Shown here one piece after another: positions 1-11,300 of a stretch of DNA of 11,300 bases. The stretch lies in IMG/VR virus record IMGVR_UViG_2778261544_000008; one strand, 5' to 3'. This DNA is from a virus (lineage: Duplodnaviria; Heunggongvirae; Uroviricota; Caudoviricetes). Below the pieces are notes generated by a model, which did no database searches, was not told where the DNA came from, and was given only the letters and a program-made list of their open reading frames with translations. The position numbers and the translations under genes are program-made. Position 1 is the first letter of the stretch. Every line of letters starts with the position of its first letter.

Positions 1-249
1 ATGCGCACACAGGTTGTATTGCAAAAATGGGGTAACAGCATTGCCCTTCGACTAACGGGAAACCTTAAAACCGTTCCGGGTTTTTCAGTGGGTGATATCG
101 TCAACGTTGAAATTAGTGAAAAAGGGCTTTTTGTAGAAAAGCCTGCACGCCGTCGCCTGAGTGAAGCCGAACTACTCGCCGGGATAACGCCAGTTACAGC
201 GCACGCTGACGAAATTGCCATCCCATTCAATGAGGAGGTTGATTACTGA
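1..249 (+). CDS. Type II antitoxin, MazE/PemI/ChpS-like (AbrB/SpoVT-type)
   Basis: 82-aa ORF starting MRTQVVLQKWGNSIALRL, which matches the MazE/ChpS N-terminal pattern (K-WGNS-A-R-P). Its stop (TGA 247-249) overlaps the ATG of the next ORF by 1 nt, the usual antitoxin-toxin arrangement. Promoter lies outside the window. Confidence 0.7.
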   Translation: MRTQVVLQKWGNSIALRLTGNLKTVPGFSVGDIVNVEISEKGLFVEKPARRRLSEAELLAGITPVTAHADEIAIPFNEEVDY

Positions 250-593
250 TGTTTGTACCTAAGCGTGGTGATATTTGCTGGCTGGATTTTGAGCCGCAGA
301 AAGGAAAAGAGATCGGAAAGTATCGCCCGGCACTCATACTATCCCATGAGCAATATAACCGACTCACCGGGCTTGTCATATGCTGCCCCATAAGTACGAG
401 CATACGAAATGCTCCCACAGAAGTTCCGGTAACAAATCTGGACGCCCCCAGCGTGGTAGCAACCACACTCATTCAAACCCTTGACTGGCGTCAGCGGAAA
501 GCGCGCTTAATCACAGAGGCAGAAGATGGGGTATTTAATGATGTGCTTGAAAGAGTCATAACCCTGATTGGTGGAGAGCATCTGCTTAAGTAA
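249..593 (+). CDS. Type II toxin, MazF/PemK/ChpB-family endoribonuclease
   Basis: 114-aa ORF with the RGDI-W-DF-P-KG-E----RPA-IL N-terminal signature of the MazF/PemK fold. Translationally coupled to the upstream antitoxin-like ORF. Confidence 0.8.
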   Translation: MFVPKRGDICWLDFEPQKGKEIGKYRPALILSHEQYNRLTGLVICCPISTSIRNAPTEVPVTNLDAPSVVATTLIQTLDWRQRKARLITEAEDGVFNDVLERVITLIGGEHLLK

Positions 594-636: not shown

Positions 637-1908
637 CTATTCTTTCCAGTCAATCCCATCCAGTAAGCACCCTGCCTCATATTGCCCCACCACCCAGTCA
701 AGGTTACAGGACTCATAGAACGCGAGGCGATTATACTGAGGCTCGTTTTTTACCAGGCCACGAACGGAACCACGCTGCCAGTACAGACACAGATTGGCAA
801 GAGGTGTGATCAATACAGCATTGTCCGGGAAAAATGGAACGGTCACAGCCGGGAGATTCCCCAGAACGGGATTTTTAATGATTTCCTCGTTAAGCAAAAT
901 TTCCTGATTCATCTGCGATGGATCAAGACGGTTTATCAAAGGCCATTGCTTACGGACCAGCGTATTGTGACTGCATACGGCCACAATGCCTTCCTGCCAC
1001 TGTTCATCAATCATGGATTGCCAGGCATCCAGAACGAGCGCATCTATCGTATGGTGTGTACCGCGTGTATTACTTTTCGGTGATGAAACAGAAAGGCCGC
1101 TGATAACCCTTCCCGCCGCTTCATTTCGAAACTTCTGCAACCAACCCACGCCGCAATCGTCACGCCCCGGATATGTTTCAGGGTCAGATTCGGCGGCATA
1201 ATGTGTGCCGTTAAAACCAATCTGAATTAAATCCAGCCATTTCCGGCGTTCAAAAGCGGCCCGCGCACTTCCTTCAAGGCCGTTTGCGGATGCGTGAGCA
1301 TCGGCATTGTCGTAGCTCAACGCAAAATCAAAATTAACCTGCTCGCAGCGGTAGCCCCTTGAAACCAGTGAATGCGCCTGTAGTGGCGAACGGCGCTCGT
1401 GAGGTGGCGATGTGCGTGCCAACGGCCCCGAAGCGTCTACCAGCACAACCCGACCTGATATATCCGTAACAGGCACGGGAGTTATTTCAGCAAGGAAATT
1501 TGCCTGCCATCCACTGGCAAGCGTTGCACTCTGGCGGGGAACGGGTTCAACTTCTGACGAATAGCGCGCAGTGTCACCGGAAAAGTGCAAATCCTTCGGA
1601 TGTTTTCCGGTTATCGACTCGATAGCGCAATTGAAAACCATCTGAGCCTGTTGATTTCGTTGTGATACAACAGAATCAGCAGTGCAATTATAACGCTCAA
1701 TGCCGTCGTTATTACCCCCACCGCTTGCAGTATGCAGGGTGTGAAGCTCAAGCTCACGCTCCAGTTTTTGATATTCATTGTCCAGCGCGCGACGCGTCTC
1801 ATCGCTTATGCTTGCTGTGTTTGCTTTCAGGCGATTCCGGGACATTAATCCCCTGAGTCGGCTCACTATATCAGCGCCGTGCAAATGTGGAGTATTCAGA
1901 CCGCCCAT
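637..1908 (-). CDS. Major capsid protein, P2 gpN-like; start codon uncertain
   Basis: Several blocks match my recollection of P2 gpN: CEQVNFDF, IGFNG, VGWLQKFRNEAAGRVIS, IDALVLDA, LGNLPAVTVPFFPDNAVLITPLANL, YESCNLDWVVGQYEAGCL. The homologous region begins near the ATG at 1641-1639. The frame is open up to 2085. An ATG at 1908-1906 overlaps the upstream ORF's stop as TAATG. Confidence 0.75.
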   Translation of the reverse strand: MGGLNTPHLHGADIVSRLRGLMSRNRLKANTASISDETRRALDNEYQKLERELELHTLHTASGGGNNDGIERYNCTADSVVSQRNQQAQMVFNCAIESITGKHPKDLHFSGDTARYSSEVEPVPRQSATLASGWQANFLAEITPVPVTDISGRVVLVDASGPLARTSPPHERRSPLQAHSLVSRGYRCEQVNFDFALSYDNADAHASANGLEGSARAAFERRKWLDLIQIGFNGTHYAAESDPETYPGRDDCGVGWLQKFRNEAAGRVISGLSVSSPKSNTRGTHHTIDALVLDAWQSMIDEQWQEGIVAVCSHNTLVRKQWPLINRLDPSQMNQEILLNEEIIKNPVLGNLPAVTVPFFPDNAVLITPLANLCLYWQRGSVRGLVKNEPQYNRLAFYESCNLDWVVGQYEAGCLLDGIDWKE

Positions 1909-2618
1909 TACTGCCACCCCCGGCAGAGTTCTCTGCCCTCCGCAAGGTCGCGCATTTTTTCTGGATTCTGTCGCGCCGCGCTCCATTGTACAGGTGAAGG
2001 GGCGTTCCTGATTGCGCGGCTTACCGAATCCGGGAGTTTCTCCGGGCAATAACGCAGCGGGCTGGAGGTGTCGCTTTCGGTATCGTTAATCCGGCCGCGA
2101 ATCATCCCGACACTTTCAGCAGTATCTGTCGCTTTCAGTGTTTCGCATATTTTCTTTTCTGCGTTATACAGCGGCTGGCCAAGCAGCTCACATAAACCAC
2201 GAATCAATAACAGAGCAGGGGTCAGCTCGTTAATCAGTTCGGGAAGTGCTTTTGCAAATATCTCTGCCCGCAACTTATTATCAATGCTTTCGTAAGCACA
2301 ACCAGCCTCTGCCGCGTTATAACGACACTCCAGTAGCCTGATGCGCGCCTCATCATGCAGCACCCGCAGACGCTCAAGATTTTCTCGCGCCACACCCGCC
2401 TGAATGGATAATTTCGCGGAGGCTTCCGTTTTTACGCCCAGCGCAGACAGGATTGAGTTCTGCCAGTCACGATCGAGAGATTCCAGCTCCCCTTTCGTCT
2501 GTTCGATAGTTGCTTCCAGATTGGTGATTAATGATTCCTGTTCACTGAGTTTTGCCATGGCTGCATCAAACTGTGCTTTACATACCTGATGTTCGGCGCT
2601 TGCCTGAGTTATATCCAT
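1908..2618 (-). CDS. Helical or coiled-coil protein, candidate capsid scaffold (Sid/gpO-like role)
   Basis: 236-aa ORF with a good SD (CAGGAGcaaatATG). The N-terminal two thirds are heptad-like and helical. It lies immediately upstream of, and overlaps, the capsid gene. Its last ~45 codons overlap the capsid-frame ORF and look low-complexity. Confidence 0.5.
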   Translation of the reverse strand: MDITQASAEHQVCKAQFDAAMAKLSEQESLITNLEATIEQTKGELESLDRDWQNSILSALGVKTEASAKLSIQAGVARENLERLRVLHDEARIRLLECRYNAAEAGCAYESIDNKLRAEIFAKALPELINELTPALLLIRGLCELLGQPLYNAEKKICETLKATDTAESVGMIRGRINDTESDTSSPLRYCPEKLPDSVSRAIRNAPSPVQWSAARQNPEKMRDLAEGRELCRGWQ

Positions 2619-4438: not shown

Positions 4439-5440
4439 TTACTCTGCTGGTTCTTTTTGTTCAGTGAATGCTATGTTAGCTATCGGGTTAAACCTCATGG
4501 CATCTGCCAGATAGTCGGGAGAAAAATGCGCATAAGTCATCGTTTGCTGAATAGTGGCATGGCCCAGAATCCGTTGCAGGGTAACGATGTTTCCCCCGTT
4601 CATCATGAAATGCGTGGCGAACGTATGACGCATCACATGAGTCGCCTGCCCTTTTGGCAAATCAGGCTTCACCTCCTGGAGGATCTCGCGAAACCGGAGA
4701 TAATCGACCTCGTACAGCGGCCCAGTTCGGCAGGTTTTAATCAGCGAGAGCACGGCATCAGACACCGGAACCGAACGGGACTTCCCGTTCTTGGTGTTGA
4801 AGAACGTCACGCGATTACCGACGATATGCTCCCCGCGTAATTCCGTCGCCTCACCCCACCGCGCCCCCGTGGAGAGACACAGAATGGCGACACGACGCGC
4901 ATCACCTTCGAGTCGCTCAAGAAGCCGCTCAATCTCATCATCAGAAAGAAAGGCCATCTCTGTATTCTGAATTTTTAGCTTACGTATACTGCGCACGGGG
5001 TTCGGGTTGTGAAAGACCCCTGCTTCAATCAACACCGTGAACATGGTAGACAGAACGCATAAGTCACGATTAATACTGGACGGCATTAATCCGGCCTGTA
5101 ATTTCTCTGACCGATACTCAAGCATAAATTTTCGCGTCATCTGGTTGGCGCGCGGATCTCCCATTTCACGAATCACTTTCTCCAGCCGGATCCTGTAGGT
5201 ATCGCCGTAAGCCTGATTACACCCGTCAAGCATCCACCATGTATCAAGCAACTCTGATAATCGCCGCCGATCAGCAGGTTTAGCTAGCCATGGGTTATTA
5301 TGGAAATTCTGCAAAACATATTGTTCGAACTTCTCTGCACTTCCTTTCCTGGTAAAAATTTTACGTATCCGTTTGCCGTATGTCCCTTGCGGCCTGATAT
5401 CTAGCAACCATCTTCCATCATCCATCTTTCTGATCGACAT
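4439..5440 (-). CDS. int: Tyrosine recombinase, P2-type integrase
   Basis: Strong similarity along the whole length to my recollection of P2 Int (MSIRKMDDGRWLLDIRPQG..., ILCLSTGARWGEA, ATHVMRHTFATHF, LQRILGHATIQQTMTYAHF, giving the catalytic R, H-x-x-R and Y). Start taken at ATG 5440 (SD AAGGAG upstream), not the upstream in-frame ATG at 5476. Confidence 0.9.
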   Translation of the reverse strand: MSIRKMDDGRWLLDIRPQGTYGKRIRKIFTRKGSAEKFEQYVLQNFHNNPWLAKPADRRRLSELLDTWWMLDGCNQAYGDTYRIRLEKVIREMGDPRANQMTRKFMLEYRSEKLQAGLMPSSINRDLCVLSTMFTVLIEAGVFHNPNPVRSIRKLKIQNTEMAFLSDDEIERLLERLEGDARRVAILCLSTGARWGEATELRGEHIVGNRVTFFNTKNGKSRSVPVSDAVLSLIKTCRTGPLYEVDYLRFREILQEVKPDLPKGQATHVMRHTFATHFMMNGGNIVTLQRILGHATIQQTMTYAHFSPDYLADAMRFNPIANIAFTEQKEPAE

Positions 5441-5442
5441 AC

Positions 5443-8112
5443 TTAAGATCTCTCCTTGTAACTGAATATCCGGCATTTCAGCACTTCCGGCTCTCTGGCC
5501 TCGGCTACTCCTTTTCCGGCGTTTGCCTGTCTGGACACCTCACTACGAATGGTTTTGCGGCCTGTCAAAGGTCGGGAACGCCCGGCTCCGAGCAGCTCAA
5601 TCATTTCGCGATCTGTTCTGATCTCCACGCGGTGAATGGCGGCAGCCTGTGCCAGTTGCGGAATGCTGATAGCAATCCCTTCGCGGCATCCCTTGCCGTA
5701 GTGGTTTACGCCGTATTTTGTTATGCCGTCCAGGAAGTCGAACGCCTCCCAGAACTCCGTCACTTCCGGCAAGTCAGCCGCCGCCGCTTTAACCTGCGCT
5801 GTTGCCATTTGTTCCAGTTCCAGACATGTGGCATCAAGCCATTCATCCGGGATATCAATAACGCATTTCAGCGCCCTGACCAGCGCGATAAGTTGTGCGT
5901 GATTTTTGGCGATGCGGGGATGGCGAATATTTTCGCATCCGCAAAGGCGTTCCGTTTCAGCTGGCGACACTTCCAGGAACGTTTGCATAATCGCCCGTTC
6001 CTGACTTACCGCCCGGTGAATAAAACCCGATACCTTCTCGACGGGGTAGAGTTCCAGCCGTCTCGCCGCCAGTCGGGTATCTGGTGAATGGCGTTTTTTA
6101 TCGGTGTATATGCGTATCAGGCGCTCAATAATTGCCGGTGAGGCGTTTACCCGCGCATTCTGTGCAATCACGATAGCGCCCTTAAAATCCGGATCATAGG
6201 TGTTGTTATTGTTGGCCTTAACACCACGAACACCGATACCGCCGCCGTTATAGAGGCTTTTCAGGTTATCGAAATCAAACGCACCTCTTTTTTGCGCATT
6301 GTCTCCCCGGTCTGCTTCAATCAGAACAACAGGCAATCCGGCGACCTGTCCAAAGGTGCGCTTCCAGCCCGCTTCTGATCCTTTGGTTGGATCAACGCCT
6401 TCGTAGTTGTCACGACCGCACAGCCGCCAGCAAAAATCAATCAATGTTGATTTACCCGTTCCGGGTTCCCCAGTGACTTCAAGGAAAGGGAAGGATTCTT
6501 CTTTATCCCGGATTTGTTCACTGAACAGCGACCCCAGCCAGAAAGCCAGGGTAATAATTCCCTTTTCGCCAAAAGCCAGCCAGAGATCTTCTACCCATGA
6601 CGTTGTAAATTCATCCGTTTTTTTGTAGTTAATCTGTAATGTGGGTTTTTCGCTTAATGGTTTTGCGTTTATGCCATCAATTTCAAAATAATCTTCGTCA
6701 TTGATTTCATAAGTTTTACCCTTGTAAACAGCAATATCATTAAACAGCCATGCCCCAATGGCCTTGTTGTATCCGATAAAATCCTGACCAATAACCTCTT
6801 TTATTGCAGGAAGGTCATTTTTTATTAATGCGTCAAGCTGCGTAGTCGTTCCGGTATAAATGCCGCCTTTTGCTACGTGCAACAGACGTTTTTTAAATTC
6901 AGATGCGGATGTTAATTGCCCTGATGTAAAGGTGTTTTTCACCGTAGCACCATCCGGGAATGTAATGCGGAAGTAATACCATGCTTCATCCGTATCATTG
7001 TTTCGAATGTAATAAAGCGGCACTGGGTTACAGTTTGCGATTTCTTTTACAGCGCCGGATTCCTTGAGTGCAATTTTGCGCGCTTCATCTTCGTCAACAT
7101 TTCGCTCATTAATGACACGCTCAACAGCCTTCATATGGCGCTCAATATCCAGCTTGAACCAGAAAACACGGTTATCAAAGGGAAAATGAAATTCCTTTCG
7201 CTCACGAAAGGAAAACATTATTAGTGCCTTATCTCGTGGAGATTTCGCCAGCAATAAATCACCGTAATAACGGTATCTTTTCACATCATGGCCACGCAGC
7301 TTTCCGGCGACGTGTAAATCATTCCAGTCGCGTTTATTGTTGTTTTTCCCTGGTAACGCCGCTGCCGTTCTCCAGCCGTCTTCGGCGCTGCGTTCTGCAT
7401 GTTTTTTCGCGTAACGCTCACCTGCACGCCCGTTATCCAGCGCCCACACGATAACCGGACGGGGATTATCCCCGCACAGCTTCGCCAGCTCTTCCAGCGC
7501 CTTATCAGGGTAGTTCACGGCAGACATGACAGAAACGGCCGCAATGCCATTCTGGTTAAGACTGATGGCATCAAAGATACCCTCACAAATCCAGATTTCT
7601 TTGGCCTTGCTTAAATCTGCTCCTGGATAAGCCCACCACAGCCCCTTGTAGCTGCCGGAAAAATTCGCCTTGCGTCCGAAGCGTTCCGGGCGATCTATGA
7701 TTCGCTCCCACCACACACCGTCAGCCAGCGTAAAACGCACAGTAGCGGCCTGTTCGCCGCTTTCCTTGTCCTGGTATCGCTCCTGGGTAAATGCTCCCCT
7801 CAGTGGCTCCACAGCAATATTGCGTGCTTCCTGAAGATAAGCTGCCGCCGCTGCGTATGGTTCATCTTTCGTACTGATATAGCGATCTGACCATGATGAA
7901 AACACATCCGGGTAAAGTTCTTTAGTCAGCAGGTCTACACCGCATTTATTTTCACGCCCGCAGTGTACGATGTACGGCCTTTCAAGGCTGGTAAACAACT
8001 CTTTCTTTCCACATTGCGGACAAACACCATACCGGAGGTAGTTATTTTCTTCTTTAAAGTTGTAATCACGAATAAGACGGTTAATAATCTCTTTTCTGGT
8101 GTTATGTTTCAT
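5443..8112 (-). CDS. Primase-helicase, P4 alpha-like (zinc ribbon + TOPRIM primase + P-loop helicase)
   Basis: N-terminal zinc-binding CPQCGKK...HCGRENKC, a TOPRIM-like segment EIWICEGIFDAISL...WALDNGRAG, and Walker A VTGEPGTGKST with a downstream VVLIEAD. ATG at 8112 is preferred; an in-frame GTG at 8130 is possible. The stop is 2 nt before the int start. Confidence 0.9.
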   Translation of the reverse strand: MKHNTRKEIINRLIRDYNFKEENNYLRYGVCPQCGKKELFTSLERPYIVHCGRENKCGVDLLTKELYPDVFSSWSDRYISTKDEPYAAAAAYLQEARNIAVEPLRGAFTQERYQDKESGEQAATVRFTLADGVWWERIIDRPERFGRKANFSGSYKGLWWAYPGADLSKAKEIWICEGIFDAISLNQNGIAAVSVMSAVNYPDKALEELAKLCGDNPRPVIVWALDNGRAGERYAKKHAERSAEDGWRTAAALPGKNNNKRDWNDLHVAGKLRGHDVKRYRYYGDLLLAKSPRDKALIMFSFRERKEFHFPFDNRVFWFKLDIERHMKAVERVINERNVDEDEARKIALKESGAVKEIANCNPVPLYYIRNNDTDEAWYYFRITFPDGATVKNTFTSGQLTSASEFKKRLLHVAKGGIYTGTTTQLDALIKNDLPAIKEVIGQDFIGYNKAIGAWLFNDIAVYKGKTYEINDEDYFEIDGINAKPLSEKPTLQINYKKTDEFTTSWVEDLWLAFGEKGIITLAFWLGSLFSEQIRDKEESFPFLEVTGEPGTGKSTLIDFCWRLCGRDNYEGVDPTKGSEAGWKRTFGQVAGLPVVLIEADRGDNAQKRGAFDFDNLKSLYNGGGIGVRGVKANNNNTYDPDFKGAIVIAQNARVNASPAIIERLIRIYTDKKRHSPDTRLAARRLELYPVEKVSGFIHRAVSQERAIMQTFLEVSPAETERLCGCENIRHPRIAKNHAQLIALVRALKCVIDIPDEWLDATCLELEQMATAQVKAAAADLPEVTEFWEAFDFLDGITKYGVNHYGKGCREGIAISIPQLAQAAAIHRVEIRTDREMIELLGAGRSRPLTGRKTIRSEVSRQANAGKGVAEAREPEVLKCRIFSYKERS

Positions 8113-8124
8113 ATATAAATCCCC

Positions 8125-8149
8125 CCCCACTGCACCTTTTGCAGTGGGG
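8125..8149. promoter_or_regulatory. Perfect 9-bp stem-loop just upstream of the primase start; attenuator or terminator-like
   Basis: CCCCACTGC-acctttt-GCAGTGGGG. On the plus strand it is followed by TTTTTATTAATT; on the minus strand it precedes the primase SD. It lies in the 43-nt gap between the 101-aa ORF and the primase gene. Confidence 0.4.
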
Positions 8150-8155
8150 TTTTTA

Positions 8156-8461
8156 TTAATTACTCGTTACTTCTTGTTCCCGGGCAATCCCTGCTGCTTC
8201 AGCCTGACGCCATGAAAAAATGCCGCCAGAAAGATGCATACCTGATTTTATTGATTGTAATTCCCGATAAATAATATTAGACAGAGATGTAATATCTTTA
8301 TTGGTAATTTCTGCACCCGCTCCGCAGCTTCTTTCATCAAACATGATAGACATAATGTTGACGAGATTAATTACATCCGTGAGATCTTCTTTTGCATCCT
8401 CTGTAAAAAAACCAACATACTCTTTATGTAAAAGATTTGCGTAATTCTGATTTTCAGACAT
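8156..8461 (-). CDS. Hypothetical protein, 101 aa, AT-rich
   Basis: ORF with SD GGGGAG and 5-nt spacing. Most of the gene is visibly more AT-rich than the flanking genes. No recognisable motif. Confidence 0.5.
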   Translation of the reverse strand: MSENQNYANLLHKEYVGFFTEDAKEDLTDVINLVNIMSIMFDERSCGAGAEITNKDITSLSNIIYRELQSIKSGMHLSGGIFSWRQAEAAGIAREQEVTSN

Positions 8462-8528
8462 AAAAACTCCCCGACCCGTTAAGGTCGAAATATAAATTTA
8501 ATTCAGTTATAAGTTGGTAATTCGGTAA

Positions 8529-8747
8529 TCAGGCGGAAAGCTGCGTCACCTTCAACGCTTTGAAATGTGTCATTCCCAGCTCTTCCAGCCCTTCGGCTGC
8601 GCGGCGTATGGCTTCGCCCGGCCCCGTTCCGTATACCGTTGCGTGTGCATGTTTGGTTAACCCACGTTTATTAACGGCATAACCCAACACAAAGAAACGT
8701 TTTTCACCACTGCCATTATTTTTACGGGATATTGAACGGCTTTTCAT
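8529..8747 (-). CDS. Hypothetical small protein, 72 aa
   Basis: ORF whose ATG overlaps the upstream ORF's stop (ATGA-type coupling). Basic N-terminus. Part of a compact small-gene block upstream of the primase gene. Confidence 0.45.
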   Translation of the reverse strand: MKSRSISRKNNGSGEKRFFVLGYAVNKRGLTKHAHATVYGTGPGEAIRRAAEGLEELGMTHFKALKVTQLSA

Positions 8748-8932
8748 TTCTTCACCTTTACCACTGATGCTGTGAGTTCTTCTTCTGGCAATTGATATTT
8801 CGGCGCAATTTCTTCCGTATACCTGATAGCGTCCCTTGCCGCTTTTCCTTTTGATTTATATTTACGTATCGTGTGGAAGTTTTCTTCCTCTCCTGTTACC
8901 ACATTACGCAATTTAATATGAATATCGTACAT
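8744..8932 (-). CDS. Hypothetical small protein, 62 aa
   Basis: Start chosen at ATG 8932, preceded by a strong SD GGAGGGG. The upstream in-frame start at 8962 lacks an SD. Stop overlaps the next ORF. Confidence 0.5.
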   Translation of the reverse strand: MYDIHIKLRNVVTGEEENFHTIRKYKSKGKAARDAIRYTEEIAPKYQLPEEELTASVVKVKK

Positions 8933-8934
8933 CG

Positions 8935-9117
8935 TTACCCCTCCATGATTTTTACTGCGCATTTGTGGGTTAATCGCCCCTGTTTGTCATTGCGGGAATA
9001 TGCCATACGACAGGCATCACGCCATGCATCGTCATAAGTCGGATATTCCCAGGAATGAATCATCTGGCGAACGTCGCCGTTCTGGTAGTTAATCAGAGTG
9101 ATAAGGAGCTTAAACAT
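8935..9117 (-). CDS. Hypothetical small protein, 60 aa
   Basis: Start chosen at ATG 9117 with SD GGGAGG. It begins 5-8 nt inside the end of the Icd-like ORF. Confidence 0.45.
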   Translation of the reverse strand: MFKLLITLINYQNGDVRQMIHSWEYPTYDDAWRDACRMAYSRNDKQGRLTHKCAVKIMEG

Positions 9118-9283
9118 GGCACGCCTCCCGGACACGGATACGAGCAACAAAGACCAGACGGGATGCCGGAAGCATGGCGCGCGCTTCGCGCTCACTGGCA
9201 GCGGTAACGGTATGAAGGCGAATATTTTTACCGTGGCACTGCATAAAGCGCCAGATAAAATCAGGGCGTGTTGATATAGCCAT
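9110..9283 (-). CDS. Icd-like small protein (P4-type immunity-region ORF)
   Basis: 57-aa ORF starting at ATG 9283 with SD GAGGAG (MAISTRPDFIWRFMQCHGKNIRLHTVTAASEREARAMLP...). It resembles small proteins annotated as Icd-like in P4-type elements, by recollection only. The longer 175-aa frame upstream has no SD. Confidence 0.4.
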   Translation of the reverse strand: MAISTRPDFIWRFMQCHGKNIRLHTVTAASEREARAMLPASRLVFVARIRVREACHV

Positions 9284-9535
9284 TTTGGCGGCTCCTCTAA
9301 CTGATTTACGGAGTCTCGCCAGCACGCTGCTAAACATGGTGGCGGGACGTAACAGGGTTAGCAGACTGGCGTTAGAGAAACCAGCGAGCGCAAAGGCTCC
9401 CCCATTACGCCCCGCCATAATACGGGGTAGGGTGGAATTACGGGCACAAAAAAACCGCATTACGGAAATATAGCGGCTACCCGCTCTAACAATCAGGCTG
9501 CTAAACCCGGCACCTGTTTTATGAGGTGCGGGCAA

Positions 9536-9565
9536 ACGATACGCCATGACAAAAAAGCGAGTCAA
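9536..9565 (-). promoter_or_regulatory. Candidate sigma70 promoter for the minus-strand early operon
   Basis: On the minus strand: TTGACT (9565-9560), 18-nt spacer, TATCGT (9541-9536). It would start a long leader (~240 nt) before the first SD-equipped ORF at 9283. Confidence 0.3.
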
Positions 9566-9699
9566 GAAAAATTGCAAATTATTTTGGCGATATTGCGCTG
9601 ACTTATTGATTTTTAAGAGTAAAAAAGTCATTATCATTTCTGCCTATTGTTTCTTATTGTTGGTTTCAGGTGCATTAAATGCACATCCTTGACTGGTTG

Positions 9700-9731
9700 G
9701 CTCGCTAGTTTTAGCGAGCTTCTTTTTTTTT
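9700..9731 (+). terminator. Rho-independent terminator, plus-strand orientation
   Basis: Perfect 8-bp stem GCTCGCTA / TAGCGAGC with loop GTTT, followed by TTCTTTTTTTTT on the plus strand. No annotated plus-strand gene feeds into it. Confidence 0.55.
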
Positions 9732-9831
9732 GCTCTGCTGTCAGTACTTGGCCTCCTTTCCCCACATGTAGCAATACGTTCAGATCAGTAAGTTTTGCCA
9801 CCCAGTGATGGACGCAATAAACCACCAACGC

Positions 9832-10152
9832 TTATTCAACTCTGGCGCTACCGGATTCCCTCTCCCTTTTCTTTTTGGCGTTTTCGTATGGGTTATTCAC
9901 TTTGGCAATAACTGGCGGATTACGCAGCCACCACAAAACATCACTTAACAGCCAGGTACATGAGCAACGCCCCAAAGAGTGACGGGGAGGAAAAGCACCG
10001 ATCTTCTCCAGTTCCCAGCGCCGGGAGCGTGAAAGCGTGGTCATCTTTTTACACTTCTCTTCCCTGATGCGTTCTTCGCAGTCAAAACCATACTCGGCGA
10101 GTATGGTGCGGCGCTGTTCTGGAGTTGGTGGAATGAATGCGGATTGAGTCAT
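9832..10152 (-). CDS. alpA: AlpA/Vis-family DNA-binding regulator (excisionase-like HTH)
   Basis: 106-aa ORF with SD GGGGGA. The central segment LSRSRRWELEKIGAFPPRHSLGRCSCTWLLSDVLWWL fits the AlpA/Vis pattern (LSRST-YR...G-FP-...LG-R-V-W...V--W). Confidence 0.6.
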   Translation of the reverse strand: MTQSAFIPPTPEQRRTILAEYGFDCEERIREEKCKKMTTLSRSRRWELEKIGAFPPRHSLGRCSCTWLLSDVLWWLRNPPVIAKVNNPYENAKKKRERESGSARVE

Positions 10153-10247
10153 ATTTCCCCCTATGTTTCTGAACTTTCGGGGGAGATTTTTGTTTTACGG
10201 AGTTTTGAAAGCAAGTATTAAAGGTCTTATTAAGATGCTTGCTGGTC

Positions 10248-11300
10248 TTACTGAGATGATGCCTTAATCCATCTTGATATAGTACTTTTATCAAAGCGCA
10301 TATTGAGTCCTGCCTCTCTTGCTTCCGCGGTCAATATATCAGCAAGTTTTACCGGATTGTTTTCGAGTTCTTTATAATGAATAACAAGCATCGCACGAAA
10401 AAAATCCTTCATTGTTTTAGATAATCGTTCTATATTGTTTTTATTGGTGCATATATCTTTCTCCCCATCCTCAGAACTTAATATATTGTTACCCGCACGC
10501 AAATATAAAGTATCTGCCAATGGACTAACATAATCTTTTCTTAACTCGCTATTGGAGTTTGTAGCATTTTGTATTTTTAAAAAATCATTCTTTAAGATAT
10601 ATAAATCACCAATATCAAAAGAAACATCCTCAGTAACAATTACTCCTATATGTATATCAACGTCAGAAGCAATTATAATATTGCTATTAATTATTCGGTT
10701 GGCTTTAAACTTCTTATTAAAATCATAGTTGGCAAAAAAACTTCCCCCCAAAGCGAAAATGCCGCCTATTTCAACAAAATACTTATGGTATTTTTCTTGA
10801 ATACCTTTAAATACTGGTGGTACAACTGCCACACCTCTTTCATCCGTTGCTATTCGATATACACTATATATGTGATAATTTTCCCCATAATATAACCCCC
10901 TGTTATAATAATTTAACAAAGCAAATGCAGTATCAATTGCTATGTCACCAAATTTGGGCGCTACATATGAATGGCTTAGAGATTCACACATTGAATCAAA
11001 TATAATTCTCGACTTGTTTTTTATATAATTAAAACCATGGTGTTCTGCCGCCCTTTCTGAAATGGCATCAAGGTCAGATAACCGTGATTTACATGGTTCT
11101 GAATCCATAAACTTACGCAGACAATCGAAATTAACCACATCTTTTTCATCTGGGATATTTAATACTCCATATGCAGATTCAATTTTTATACAAATACGAA
11201 TGCAGCCTGTCACAGCCCAATGAATAAGATCATCAATATCGCAGTCTAATAACTTTGCCGCGCGCTCAATAGGATAGTAATCTCTTAGTGGTAACGTCAT
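10248..11300 (-). CDS. Hypothetical protein, 350 aa, strongly AT-rich cargo gene with HTH-like termini
   Basis: Uninterrupted 1053-nt ORF whose ATG is the last three bases of the window. Composition is far more AT-rich than the neighbouring alpA and primase genes. The N-terminus (IERAAKLLDCDIDDLIHWAVTG) and C-terminus (LADILTAEAREAGLNMRFDKSTISRWIK) look HTH-like. The central domain is unrecognised. Confidence 0.65.
   Translation of the reverse strand: MTLPLRDYYPIERAAKLLDCDIDDLIHWAVTGCIRICIKIESAYGVLNIPDEKDVVNFDCLRKFMDSEPCKSRLSDLDAISERAAEHHGFNYIKNKSRIIFDSMCESLSHSYVAPKFGDIAIDTAFALLNYYNRGLYYGENYHIYSVYRIATDERGVAVVPPVFKGIQEKYHKYFVEIGGIFALGGSFFANYDFNKKFKANRIINSNIIIASDVDIHIGVIVTEDVSFDIGDLYILKNDFLKIQNATNSNSELRKDYVSPLADTLYLRAGNNILSSEDGEKDICTNKNNIERLSKTMKDFFRAMLVIHYKELENNPVKLADILTAEAREAGLNMRFDKSTISRWIKASSQ

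What the first reader, a model, noticed from the sequence alone, without database searches (positions are those of the whole stretch)
8529..9117. Three overlapping small ORFs (60-72 aa) between the Icd-like gene and the primase gene
They have tight start/stop overlaps and two have strong SDs, so they are probably real and co-translated. None carries a motif I can name. In P4 the equivalent block encodes kil and epsilon (helper derepression), so these are candidates for helper-manipulation factors.
Basis: inference. Interest (0 to 1): 0.35.

Follow-up and report, generated by a model that had tools for sequence, protein, structure and literature searches.

The report
Tiny conserved satellite early-operon genes
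The three small overlapping ORFs are real, conserved genes in the immunity-controlled early operon of a P4-type phage satellite of E. coli, but they are not relatives or stand-ins of P4's Epsilon or Kil, and what they do is still unknown.

Summary
Confirmed. Three back-to-back minus-strand genes lie at C 8935-9117 (60 aa), B 8744-8932 (62 aa; the 72-aa form is over-extended) and A 8529-8747 (72 aa). They have Shine-Dalgarno sites and tight junctions. They lie downstream of isrK-like RNA, C4 RNA and a short Icd-like gene. A fourth small gene D (8156-8461) and a Toprim primase follow.

All three frames are kept under purifying selection (pN/pS: A 0.26, C 0.42, B 0.53). They recur in Escherichia, Yersinia, Salmonella, Serratia and Rahnella satellites. 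B and C are tandem paralogues (hhalign E 9e-8). A is a separate basic family with an invariant GYAV motif. AlphaFold2 gives A and B the same beta-beta-alpha-beta topology.

No Pfam, NCBIfam, PADLOC or PDB match was found, and no PHROG of known function. None resembles P4 Epsilon, ORF151 or Cnr.

The decisive result is that related satellites carry C(-B)-A together with a true Epsilon-family gene (Pfam PF25738). So the trio is not the Epsilon replacement. In this window, D occupies the Epsilon slot.

Best reading, with the function only inferred: small binder or inhibitor proteins released when satellite immunity is lifted. Ordinary in kind, uncharacterised in detail.

The parts
8935..9117 (-). 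Gene C, 60 aa. First gene after the Icd-like gene, with an 8-nt overlap (ATGTTTAA). SD GGGAGG at 9124-9129.
   Evidence: pN/pS 0.42. Homologues at 44-52% identity in Salmonella/L030, Serratia, L037-L039 and L040. Paralogue of B.
8744..8932 (-). Gene B, 62 aa (ATG 8932; SD GGAGGGG at 8938-8944). The 72-aa version from ATG 8962 is probably over-extended. Its stop overlaps the A start (ATGA).
   Evidence: pN/pS 0.53. AF2 mean pLDDT 82.3, beta-beta-alpha-beta. At least four allele types at 50-65% identity.
8529..8747 (-). Gene A, 72 aa, basic (pI 10.5, net charge about +8). Disordered N-terminal tail, then a beta-beta-alpha-beta core with an invariant GYAV..G.T motif.
   Evidence: pN/pS 0.26; mean pLDDT 85.5.
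8156..8461 (-). Gene D, 101 aa, acidic (pI 4.6). Not in the finding. It sits between A and the primase, where related elements carry an Epsilon-family gene. Its alleles are extremely diverse.
   Evidence: 33-95% identity between otherwise close elements; homologues in Serratia, Rahnella, Salmonella; Epsilon in this slot in L040.
8469..8490 (-). Hairpin followed by GGGGAG-TTTTT-ATG, between A and D. It is terminator-like and overlaps D's SD.
   Evidence: Compensatory stem changes in Yersinia (CAACC/GGTTG against CGACC/GGTCG) and a different hairpin at the same place in Salmonella/L030. The 91-nt region as a whole folds no better than shuffles.
9110..9283 (-). Short Icd-like gene (about 57 aa, 'MAISTRPDF...'). 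This is the real coding part of the annotated 175-aa ORF 9110-9637.
   Evidence: NCBIfam NF033153 matches residues 127-169 of the long ORF. The RNA genes occupy the upstream part. Nearly invariant among copies. pN/pS 0.17.
9335..9422 (-). C4-type antisense RNA, the counterpart of the P4 CI / P1 C4 immunity RNA.
   Evidence: Rfam RF01695, 72.9 bits, E 4.7e-13. Same element in P4, L006 and L030.
9448..9529 (-). isrK-like leader RNA.
   Evidence: Rfam RF01394, 52.2 bits against a gathering score of 50. Also present in P4 and L006.
9536..9565 (-). Sigma-70-like promoter candidate (TTGACT-18-TATCGT) just upstream of the isrK-like RNA.
   Evidence: This is a consensus match only, and the number of such matches is not above the shuffle expectation.
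5443..8130 (-). Toprim primase/helicase-type replicase, the counterpart of P4 alpha and the last large gene of the operon. RefSeq starts it 18 nt further in.
   Evidence: Toprim_2 6.7e-13, Toprim_3.
9832..10152 (-). AlpA-family regulator/excisionase upstream of the immunity region.
   Evidence: Pfam PF05930 3.3e-7 and phrog_2790 4.6e-30.

Best explanation
SHOWN. A, B and C are genuine protein-coding genes of a P4-related satellite integrated in E. coli. They lie in one minus-strand array: isrK-like RNA, C4-type immunity RNA, short Icd-like gene, C, B, A, a hairpin, D, then the Toprim primase. This is the same layout as the P4 left operon, but with different genes in the slot between the Icd-like gene and the replicase.

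Each product is a roughly 7-kDa single domain. AlphaFold2 gives A and B the same beta-beta-alpha-beta order of elements. C is a sequence paralogue of B, so B and C are a tandem duplication. A is a separate, strongly basic family.

A C-(B)-A cassette, or A alone, recurs in P4-type satellites of at least five Enterobacterales genera. It occurs next to three different replicase types, and both with and without a true Epsilon gene.

INFERRED, regulation. C overlaps the Icd-like stop by 8 nt, and the array has almost no untranslated gaps. The trio should therefore be made only when the C4-type RNA block on icd translation is lifted. This would work through translational coupling and polarity, as established for P1 c4-icd-ant and P4 CI RNA. 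In other words, the trio is made on satellite activation.

INFERRED, function. They most likely act as small stoichiometric binder or inhibitor proteins aimed at a helper-phage or host target that is distinct from the Epsilon target. C and B behave like fast-turnover specificity modules: they show several allele types, reassortment, loss in Yersinia and replacement by DUF4222 in Serratia. A behaves like a conserved core factor, possibly nucleic-acid binding. If anything in this window substitutes for Epsilon, D is the positional candidate, not A, B or C.
For: Coding status.

Annotation and spread:
- 66 of 5426 E. coli genomes.
- Yersinia L006.
- Salmonella L036 and L030.
- Serratia L033 and Rahnella L034.
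- E. coli KCJ3K291, L040.

Operon layout: Rfam C4 and isrK inside the annotated Icd ORF. P4 has the same order, and Epsilon starts 8 nt before the end of the Icd-like ORF.

B/C paralogy: BLASTP of the L030 copies gives E 2e-8. hhalign of the two families gives probability 94% and E 9e-8.

Folds: A has mean pLDDT 85.5 and about 96 in the core. B has 82.3. The element order is identical.

Independence from Epsilon: PF25738 genes lie beside C/A homologues.

Independence from replicase type:
- Toprim_2/Toprim_3 primases.
- Zn_Ribbon_Prim/DUF927 primase in L036.
- Phage_GPA in L034.

Allele mosaicism of C, B and D against near-invariance of A and Icd.

A is basic and D is acidic.
Against: No experiment and no informative homologue supports any specific activity.

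Foldseek finds nothing at E <= 1e-3. The best matches are a generic small fold: the eL20/LX ribosomal domain, T7 Gp2 and many uncharacterised phage proteins. The binder/inhibitor idea and the nucleic-acid-binding idea therefore rest on size, charge, position and evolutionary pattern only.

pN/pS is below 1 everywhere, so there is no direct sign of positive selection on B or C.

The promoter call is a bare consensus match.

C was not modelled. Its fold is inferred from its paralogy with B.

Transcription and translation were not observed.
Confidence: 0.5

Rival explanations
1. One reading: one or more of A, B and C is the functional analogue of P4 Epsilon, an antirepressor that derepresses a P2-type helper prophage. 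It would have replaced Epsilon non-homologously in this lineage.
For: C sits exactly where Epsilon sits in P4, immediately after the Icd-like gene and with the same 8-nt overlap. The window has no Epsilon homologue. In P1, P7 and Gifsy-1 the gene after c4-icd or isrK-orf45 is an antirepressor (own knowledge). B and C show the allelic diversity expected of specificity determinants.
Against: There is no sequence or profile similarity to Epsilon and no PF25738 hit. C, B and A homologues co-occur with a bona fide PF25738 gene in L040, L033, L037 and L038, so they are not alternatives to it. In the window lineage it is D that occupies the slot where those relatives carry Epsilon.
Confidence: 0.15
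2. They are replication accessory or copy-number regulators of the satellite replicase, the role Cnr plays for P4 alpha.
For: They lie just upstream of the primase in the same operon, as cnr does in P4. A is basic and could bind DNA.
Against: There is no similarity to Cnr/DUF5375. A-family genes occur with three unrelated replicase architectures, including a P2 gpA-type initiator. No iterons lie in or near the block.
Confidence: 0.1
3. They are anti-defence proteins that neutralise host or helper-encoded immunity when the satellite is activated.
For: They have the small size, early expression, rapid turnover and allelic diversity typical of anti-defence genes. The fold resembles many small uncharacterised phage early proteins.
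Against: No hit to any known family was found. A large survey detected no known anti-defence systems in P4-like satellites (PMC13586616), though that only excludes known types.
Confidence: 0.15
4. The reading frames matter only as translated spacers. Ribosome traffic would prevent Rho-dependent polarity on the primase, and the proteins themselves would have no function. Alternatively, the ORFs are spurious.
For: P4 immunity works through translation-dependent premature termination (own knowledge). The array is gap-free.
Against: Amino-acid sequences are under purifying selection, most strongly in A. Families are conserved at 37-60% identity across genera with invariant motifs. AlphaFold2 gives confident compact folds from shallow alignments.
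Confidence: 0.03

Closest known systems
P4 left (early) operon: CI RNA, Kil/Icd-like, Epsilon, ORF151, Cnr, alpha
   Same: Same order of isrK-like RNA, C4/CI RNA, Icd-like domain, small genes and replicase. The first small gene overlaps the Icd-like stop by 8 nt in both. AlpA lies upstream and an Ogr/Delta-like gene lies elsewhere in the element.
   Different: The slot holds C, B, A and D instead of Epsilon, ORF151 and Cnr, with no detectable homology. The element also lacks sid and psu and carries its own P2-family capsid gene.
P4 Epsilon / Ash helper derepression protein (Pfam PF25738)
   Same: Small protein encoded right after the immunity region of a P4-type satellite.
   Different: No sequence match. 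Epsilon-family genes coexist with C/B/A homologues in related elements. The Epsilon slot, directly before the primase, is filled by D in this window.
P1/P7 c4-icd-ant operon and Salmonella Gifsy-1 isrK-orf45-anrP
   Same: An antisense or leader RNA is followed by a short icd-like ORF that is translationally coupled to downstream effector genes (Rfam hits; mechanism from own knowledge).
   Different: The downstream genes there are large antirepressors. Here they are 60-72-aa proteins of unknown activity.
Small beta-beta-alpha-beta phage proteins such as T7 Gp2 (RNA polymerase inhibitor), and the eL20/LX ribosomal domain
   Same: Similar size and topology. For model A, Foldseek gives TM-scores (normalised to the query) of 0.62-0.70 to eL20/LX and 0.58 (normalised to the target) to Gp2 chain 4lk0_M.
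   Different: All E-values are at or above 0.02, identity is 8-18%, and the fold is very common. This is an analogy, not membership.
phrog_3672 (PHROG family of unknown function)
   Same: Three distant members of the A family match it, best E 3.5e-7.
   Different: The window's A does not reach it, and the family has no annotated function.

Membership tests
P4 Epsilon / Ash (Pfam PF25738 'Derepression') | Sequence match to the family profile (gathering score 27 bits; P4 Epsilon scores 170 bits). | tested here: not met
   A, B, C and D give no PF25738 hit at E <= 1. BLASTP and hhalign against P4 Epsilon find nothing. tblastn of three Epsilon proteins against the window finds nothing meaningful. 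The positive controls hit.
P4 Epsilon / Ash (functional replacement) | If the trio were a non-homologous replacement, it should be an alternative to Epsilon in related elements. | tested here: not met
   C, B, A and Epsilon occur together in L040. C, DUF4222, A, D and Epsilon occur together in L033. C, A and Epsilon occur together in L037 and L038.
P4 Epsilon / Ash | Binds the helper's C repressor and induces the helper prophage. | not testable with these tools
   Needs expression in lysogens and binding assays.
Icd-like / P4 Kil (NCBIfam NF033153) | Match to the 48-residue Icd-like domain. | tested here: not met
   Only the upstream ORF matches (2.3e-14, residues 127-169). A, B and C have no hit.
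P4 Cnr (Pfam DUF5375) | Match to DUF5375. P4 ORF106 scores 2.9e-63. | tested here: not met
   No hit for A, B, C or D. hhalign against Cnr is negative. Control.
C/B family (defined here) | N-terminal 'M[FY]x[IL]x[IV]x..N...G', then 'Y.[ST]...A', about 60-65 aa, placed after the Icd-like gene. | tested here: met
   In alignment A8, M1, N10, Y25 and A31 are invariant and G14 is nearly so. BLASTP C' against B' gives 2e-8. hhalign gives 94% probability, E 9e-8. Cross-genus hits reach 1e-17 to 1e-22.
A family (defined here; distant members in phrog_3672) | Invariant K..(F/Y).V.GYAV..G.T ... A...A ... G motif, 67-91 aa, downstream of C/B or of the Icd/ASH ORF. | tested here: met
   15 cluster representatives at E <= 1e-3 among 1.84 billion. 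Alignment A7. Contexts.
DUF1508 / YegP-like domain (a resemblance I recalled from the motif 'NG...Y.S...A') | Profile or structural match to DUF1508. | tested here: not met
   No Pfam hit. No PDB sequence hit. No DUF1508 structure appears among the top 50 Foldseek matches for either model.
Known anti-phage defence proteins (PADLOC) | Match to any PADLOC model. | tested here: not met
   No hit for A, B, C or D.

The most novel reading that the evidence does not exclude
The C-(B)-A cassette is a previously unrecognised, widely shared effector module of P4-type satellites, and P4 itself lacks it. It would be a pair of tiny beta-beta-alpha-beta proteins released by the C4-RNA/Icd switch. They would act on a target other than the helper's C repressor, for example another helper regulator, the host transcription or replication machinery, or a defence system. 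C and B would supply variable specificity, and the basic A protein would be a conserved nucleic-acid- or protein-binding core.
Probability: 0.3. Interest if true: 0.55.

Novelty: new variant of a known kind. Interest (0 to 1): 0.3.

Why it matters
P4 is the textbook phage satellite, but P4 itself lacks these genes. They recur in satellites of at least five Enterobacterales genera, at the position where the satellite first acts on its helper and host after immunity is lifted.

Showing that they coexist with Epsilon separates them from the one known function of this slot. That makes them, together with the hypervariable neighbour D, concrete candidates for undiscovered satellite-helper or satellite-host interactions.

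In practical terms the result also corrects annotation:
- The 175-aa 'Icd-like' ORF is mostly RNA genes.
- B is 62 aa, not 72 aa.
- Two small protein families can now be defined.

It remains an ordinary kind of object: uncharacterised small early genes of a mobile element.

Tried and rejected
- **Direct family searches.** Pfam, PHROGs, NCBIfam and PADLOC scans of A, B, C and D gave only sub-threshold noise, such as AAA_lid_RFC1, CotG_ExsB_Nterm, CdrS and AbiEi_4. I discarded these.
- **Family-wide scans.** The C/B set gave only DUF6316 (0.0016, 2 of 16 members), Ribosomal_L33 and CSD, all below the cut-offs. PHROG hits were similarly weak.
- **PDB sequence searches.** Four profiles were tried. 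The only 'hit' (4yxx, a designed repeat protein, 2.8e-4) is a sum of repeated weak helix matches and was rejected. P2 Cox (4lhf, E 0.44) is not significant.
- **DUF1508/YegP idea.** I raised it from a motif resemblance. Neither sequence nor structure supports it.
- **Foldseek.** Model A was searched against PDB and BFVD, and model B against PDB. Nothing reached E <= 1e-3, so the fold is generic.
- **GenBank phages.** tblastn of A, B, C and two distant A relatives found no relatives.
- **Species-representative genomes.** A pattern scan with A found one locus, an Escherichia sp.. This method only finds near-exact motifs.
- **Primase-anchored search in IMG/VR.** It produced one distant high-GC element (L032) with no C, B or A, which was uninformative.
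- **A against B/C paralogy.** No sequence signal was found. I claim only shared topology.
- **Positive selection.** Not detected; all pairwise pN/pS values are below 1.
- **Iterons or an origin in the block.** None found.
- **Literature.** No paper cites the RefSeq accessions. The P4-like surveys mention only a 75-aa unknown family between epsilon and alpha (PMC8628076), which I could not equate with A. The 'Icd' hits in PMC10111431 refer to isocitrate dehydrogenase.

Full report
**What is there.** The window is part of a P4-related satellite integrated in an E. coli chromosome. Megablast of 8100-10300 finds 91 complete E. coli genomes, all chromosomal. The annotation of the best hit, together with the window's own ORFs, gives one minus-strand array:
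- AlpA (9832-10152)
- an ORF annotated 'Icd-like' (9110-9637)
- three small genes
- a 101-aa gene
- a Toprim primase (5443-8130)
- a second integrase-like gene

I call the three small genes C (8935-9117), B (8744-8932) and A (8529-8747), in order of transcription.

- The junctions are as tight as described. Icd-like/C overlap by 8 nt (ATGTTTAA). C/B are separated by 2 nt (TAA-CG-ATG). B/A share ATGA.
- C and B have strong Shine-Dalgarno sites: GGGAGG at 9124-9129 and GGAGGGG at 8938-8944. A has a weaker one, AAGGTGA at 8752-8758.
- B is listed mechanically as 72 aa from ATG 8962. All homologues begin 'MY[DEK]I...' and RefSeq aa, so ATG 8932 is the likely start.
- In 2000 dinucleotide shuffles of 8500-9150, three ORFs of at least 60 aa on one strand occurred in 0.5% of cases. 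No shuffle reached the observed 95.5% coverage.

**Are they genes?**
- The block is present in 66 of 5426 complete E. coli genomes.
- Across ten diverged copies, the summed pN/pS in the proposed frames is 0.26 (A), 0.53 (B) and 0.42 (C), against 0.76-1.33 in the other frames. Variable sites are enriched at third codon positions.
- Pairwise values between allele types are all below 1.
- The frames persist in Yersinia, Salmonella and an IMG/VR element, Serratia and Rahnella, and a second kind of E. coli element. Amino-acid identity there is 37-60%.

**What the proteins look like.**
- No Pfam, PHROG, NCBIfam or PADLOC family matches any of them.
- The word-indexed homologue search finds only 8-15 close clusters each, almost all E. 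coli.
- Nothing is found in GenBank phages.
- AlphaFold2 on shallow alignments still gives confident compact models. A has mean pLDDT 85.5 (about 96 in the core), with a disordered basic tail at residues 1-12, strands at 16-25, 31-40 and 60-70, and a helix at 43-56. B has pLDDT 82.3, with strands at 2-10, 16-20 and 51-59 and a helix at 28-46. Both have a beta-beta-alpha-beta order.
- Foldseek finds nothing at E <= 1e-3 in PDB or BFVD. The nearest shapes are the eL20/LX ribosomal domain, T7 Gp2 and many uncharacterised small phage proteins. The fold is generic and says little about function.

**B and C are paralogues.**
- The window's own copies show only a weak profile signal (E 3e-4).
- The copies in the more distant element L030 align directly (BLASTP E 2e-8).
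- The enlarged family profiles match with 94% probability, E 9e-8, over residues 1-45.
- A joint alignment has M1, N10, Y25 and A31 invariant.

**A is a separate family.**
- A shows no sequence relation to B or C.
- An exhaustive HMMER search gives 15 cluster representatives at E <= 1e-3. They share an invariant GYAV..G.T motif. They come from Salmonella, Serratia and Rahnella as well as Escherichia and Yersinia.
- Three distant members touch phrog_3672, a family of unknown function.
- A is strongly basic (pI 10.5). D is acidic (pI 4.6).

**Context: the P4 comparison.**
- Rfam places a C4-type antisense RNA at 9335-9422 and an isrK-like RNA at 9448-9529, both inside the annotated 175-aa 'Icd-like' ORF.
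- Only residues 127-169 of that ORF match the Icd-like model. The real gene is probably the last 57 codons or so (9110-9283).
- P4 has the same series. It carries isrK-like RNA, then C4 (its CI RNA), then an Icd-like domain at the end of the old 'cI ORF'. Epsilon follows and begins 8 nt before that ORF ends, then ORF151, ORF106 (Cnr) and alpha.
- C therefore sits exactly where Epsilon sits in P4. From my own knowledge, Kil is most likely the Icd-like gene itself.
- None of A, B, C or D resembles Epsilon, ORF151 or Cnr by BLASTP or hhalign.
- The window contains no Epsilon, Cnr, ORF151, Sid or Psu homologue. It does contain a Delta-like zinc finger.

**The decisive comparison.** Pfam PF25738 'Derepression' is the Epsilon family; P4 Epsilon matches it at 9e-51. 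Related satellites carry the same small genes together with a PF25738 gene:

| Element | Gene order between Icd/ASH and the replicase |
|---|---|
| E. coli KCJ3K291 (L040) | Icd, 84 aa, C, B, A, Epsilon (6e-20), primase |
| Serratia (L033) | C, DUF4222, A, D-like, Epsilon (2e-20), primase |
| Two metagenomic contigs (L037, L038) | C, A, Epsilon, primase |
| Rahnella (L034) | ASH ORF, A, D-like, 171 aa, P2 gpA-type replicase |
| Salmonella (L036) | C, B, A, D, then a Zn-ribbon/DUF927 primase |
| Yersinia (L006) | C lost (remnant 'MFKLLIN*'); B, A and D kept |

Three conclusions follow:
- The trio is not an alternative to Epsilon.
- It is not tied to one replicase type.
- In the window lineage, the gene in the slot directly before the primase, where relatives have Epsilon, is D.

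**Evolutionary behaviour.** Among copies that are about 90-99% identical in flanking DNA:
- C has three allele types (about 73-75% identity).
- B has at least four (50-65%).
- D has many (33-95%).
- A and Icd are nearly invariant.
- Alleles reassort freely. For example, C1 occurs with B1 or B3, and C2 occurs with B1, B2 or B3.

In short, there is a variable set (C, B, D) and a constant set (Icd, A). This fits specificity modules plus a core factor, but it is not proof.

**How it most likely works.**
- Shown: the three are genuine, co-oriented, tightly packed genes downstream of a C4-type RNA and an icd-like gene.
- Inferred from the established P1 c4-icd-ant and P4 CI-RNA mechanisms (own knowledge): the RNA blocks translation of the leader gene. 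Coupling and polarity then silence everything downstream. The trio would therefore be made only when satellite immunity is lifted.
- Inferred from size, fold, position and turnover: the products are small stoichiometric binders or inhibitors of a helper or host target distinct from the Epsilon target.
- A may bind nucleic acid. It has a basic tail and its best shape match is an rRNA-binding domain, but the match statistics are weak.

My confidence is about 0.95 that they are real genes and 0.9 that B and C are paralogues. It is about 0.8 that the genes are immunity-controlled and about 0.35 for the binder/inhibitor function. The rivals (Epsilon analogue, replication regulator, anti-defence protein, translated spacer) are weighed separately.

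**Other structure in the block.** A small hairpin followed by GGGGAG-TTTTT-ATG lies between A and D (8469-8490). Yersinia keeps it through compensatory changes, and Salmonella/L030 has a different hairpin at the same place. It may attenuate read-through or modulate D translation. As a whole, the spacer does not fold better than shuffles. No iterons were found.

**Novelty and verdict.** The architecture is the known P4-type early operon. The content of the slot is a different cassette (C, B, A, D), built from two small protein families that no curated library describes. I rate this a new variant of a known kind. It is of modest interest because it supplies defined, testable candidates, but it carries no mechanistic surprise yet.

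Noticed in passing
window 9110-9637 (-): The ORF that RefSeq annotates as a 175-aa 'host cell division inhibitor Icd-like protein' is mostly laid over two RNA genes: isrK-like at 9448-9529 and C4 at 9335-9422. Only its last 57 codons or so (9110-9283) look like a real Icd-like gene. P4's old 'cI gene product' ORF has the same problem.
   Followed up: yes
window 8156-8461 (-): Gene D (101 aa, acidic) is hypervariable, at 33-95% amino-acid identity between otherwise near-identical elements. It keeps the motifs 'Y.GF(F/I)(T/S)E' and 'GGIF(S/T)'. It has homologues in Serratia, Rahnella and Salmonella, and it sits where related elements carry an Epsilon-family gene. It is a better positional candidate for helper derepression than A, B or C.
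   Followed up: partly
window 8469-8490 (-): A hairpin plus GGGGAG-TTTTT-ATG lies just before D. It shows compensatory stem changes in Yersinia, and Salmonella/L030 has a different hairpin at the same place. It may be an attenuator or a translational control element.
   Followed up: partly
window 8640-8651 (-), gene A residues 33-36: The 'HAHA' dipeptide repeat (CATGCACACGCA) expands in frame to HAHAHA or HAHAHAHA in some copies (P0002, P0004, L003, L021). It lies in the second beta-strand of the model.
   Followed up: no
window 637-2049 (-) and 1908-2618 (-): The satellite carries its own P2-family major capsid gene (Pfam PF05125, 3.3e-72), preceded by a 236-aa gene with no family match. The window has no sid, psu or epsilon. 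In relatives (L002, L004, L006, L009, L010, L030, L036) the same capsid module sits between AlpA and the Icd region instead. This looks like a capsid-encoding branch of P4-type satellites.
   Followed up: partly
window 4439-5476 (-): A second tyrosine-recombinase gene (Int_N plus Phage_integrase) follows the primase and overlaps its 3' end. This arrangement is conserved in all related elements, in addition to the attachment-site integrase at the element's end.
   Followed up: no
window 1-593 (+): An 82-aa ORF plus a PemK/MazF toxin (Pfam PF02452, 4.3e-25) lie at the edge of the element, probably a toxin-antitoxin cargo.
   Followed up: no
window 10248-11300 (-): A 350-aa AT-rich ORF lies between AlpA and the element's integrase. 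It has no Pfam or PADLOC hit. It sits in a position where P4-like satellites often carry defence cargo.
   Followed up: no
L030, L033, L036, L037-L040 junctions; window 9110-9117: Genes in this array are repeatedly joined by the same 8-nt overlap (ATGNNNTAA/TGA). As a result, unrelated upstream proteins end in '...HV' or '...HG' and the next protein starts 'MFK', 'MYK' or 'MVK'. P4 Epsilon also ends '...THV'. This may be a cassette junction that keeps translational coupling when genes are swapped.
   Followed up: no
window 8125-8149: A perfect 10-bp inverted repeat (CCCCACTGCA/TGCAGTGGGG) lies between the D stop and the primase start. It reads as an intrinsic terminator on the plus strand, opposite to the operon.
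   Followed up: no
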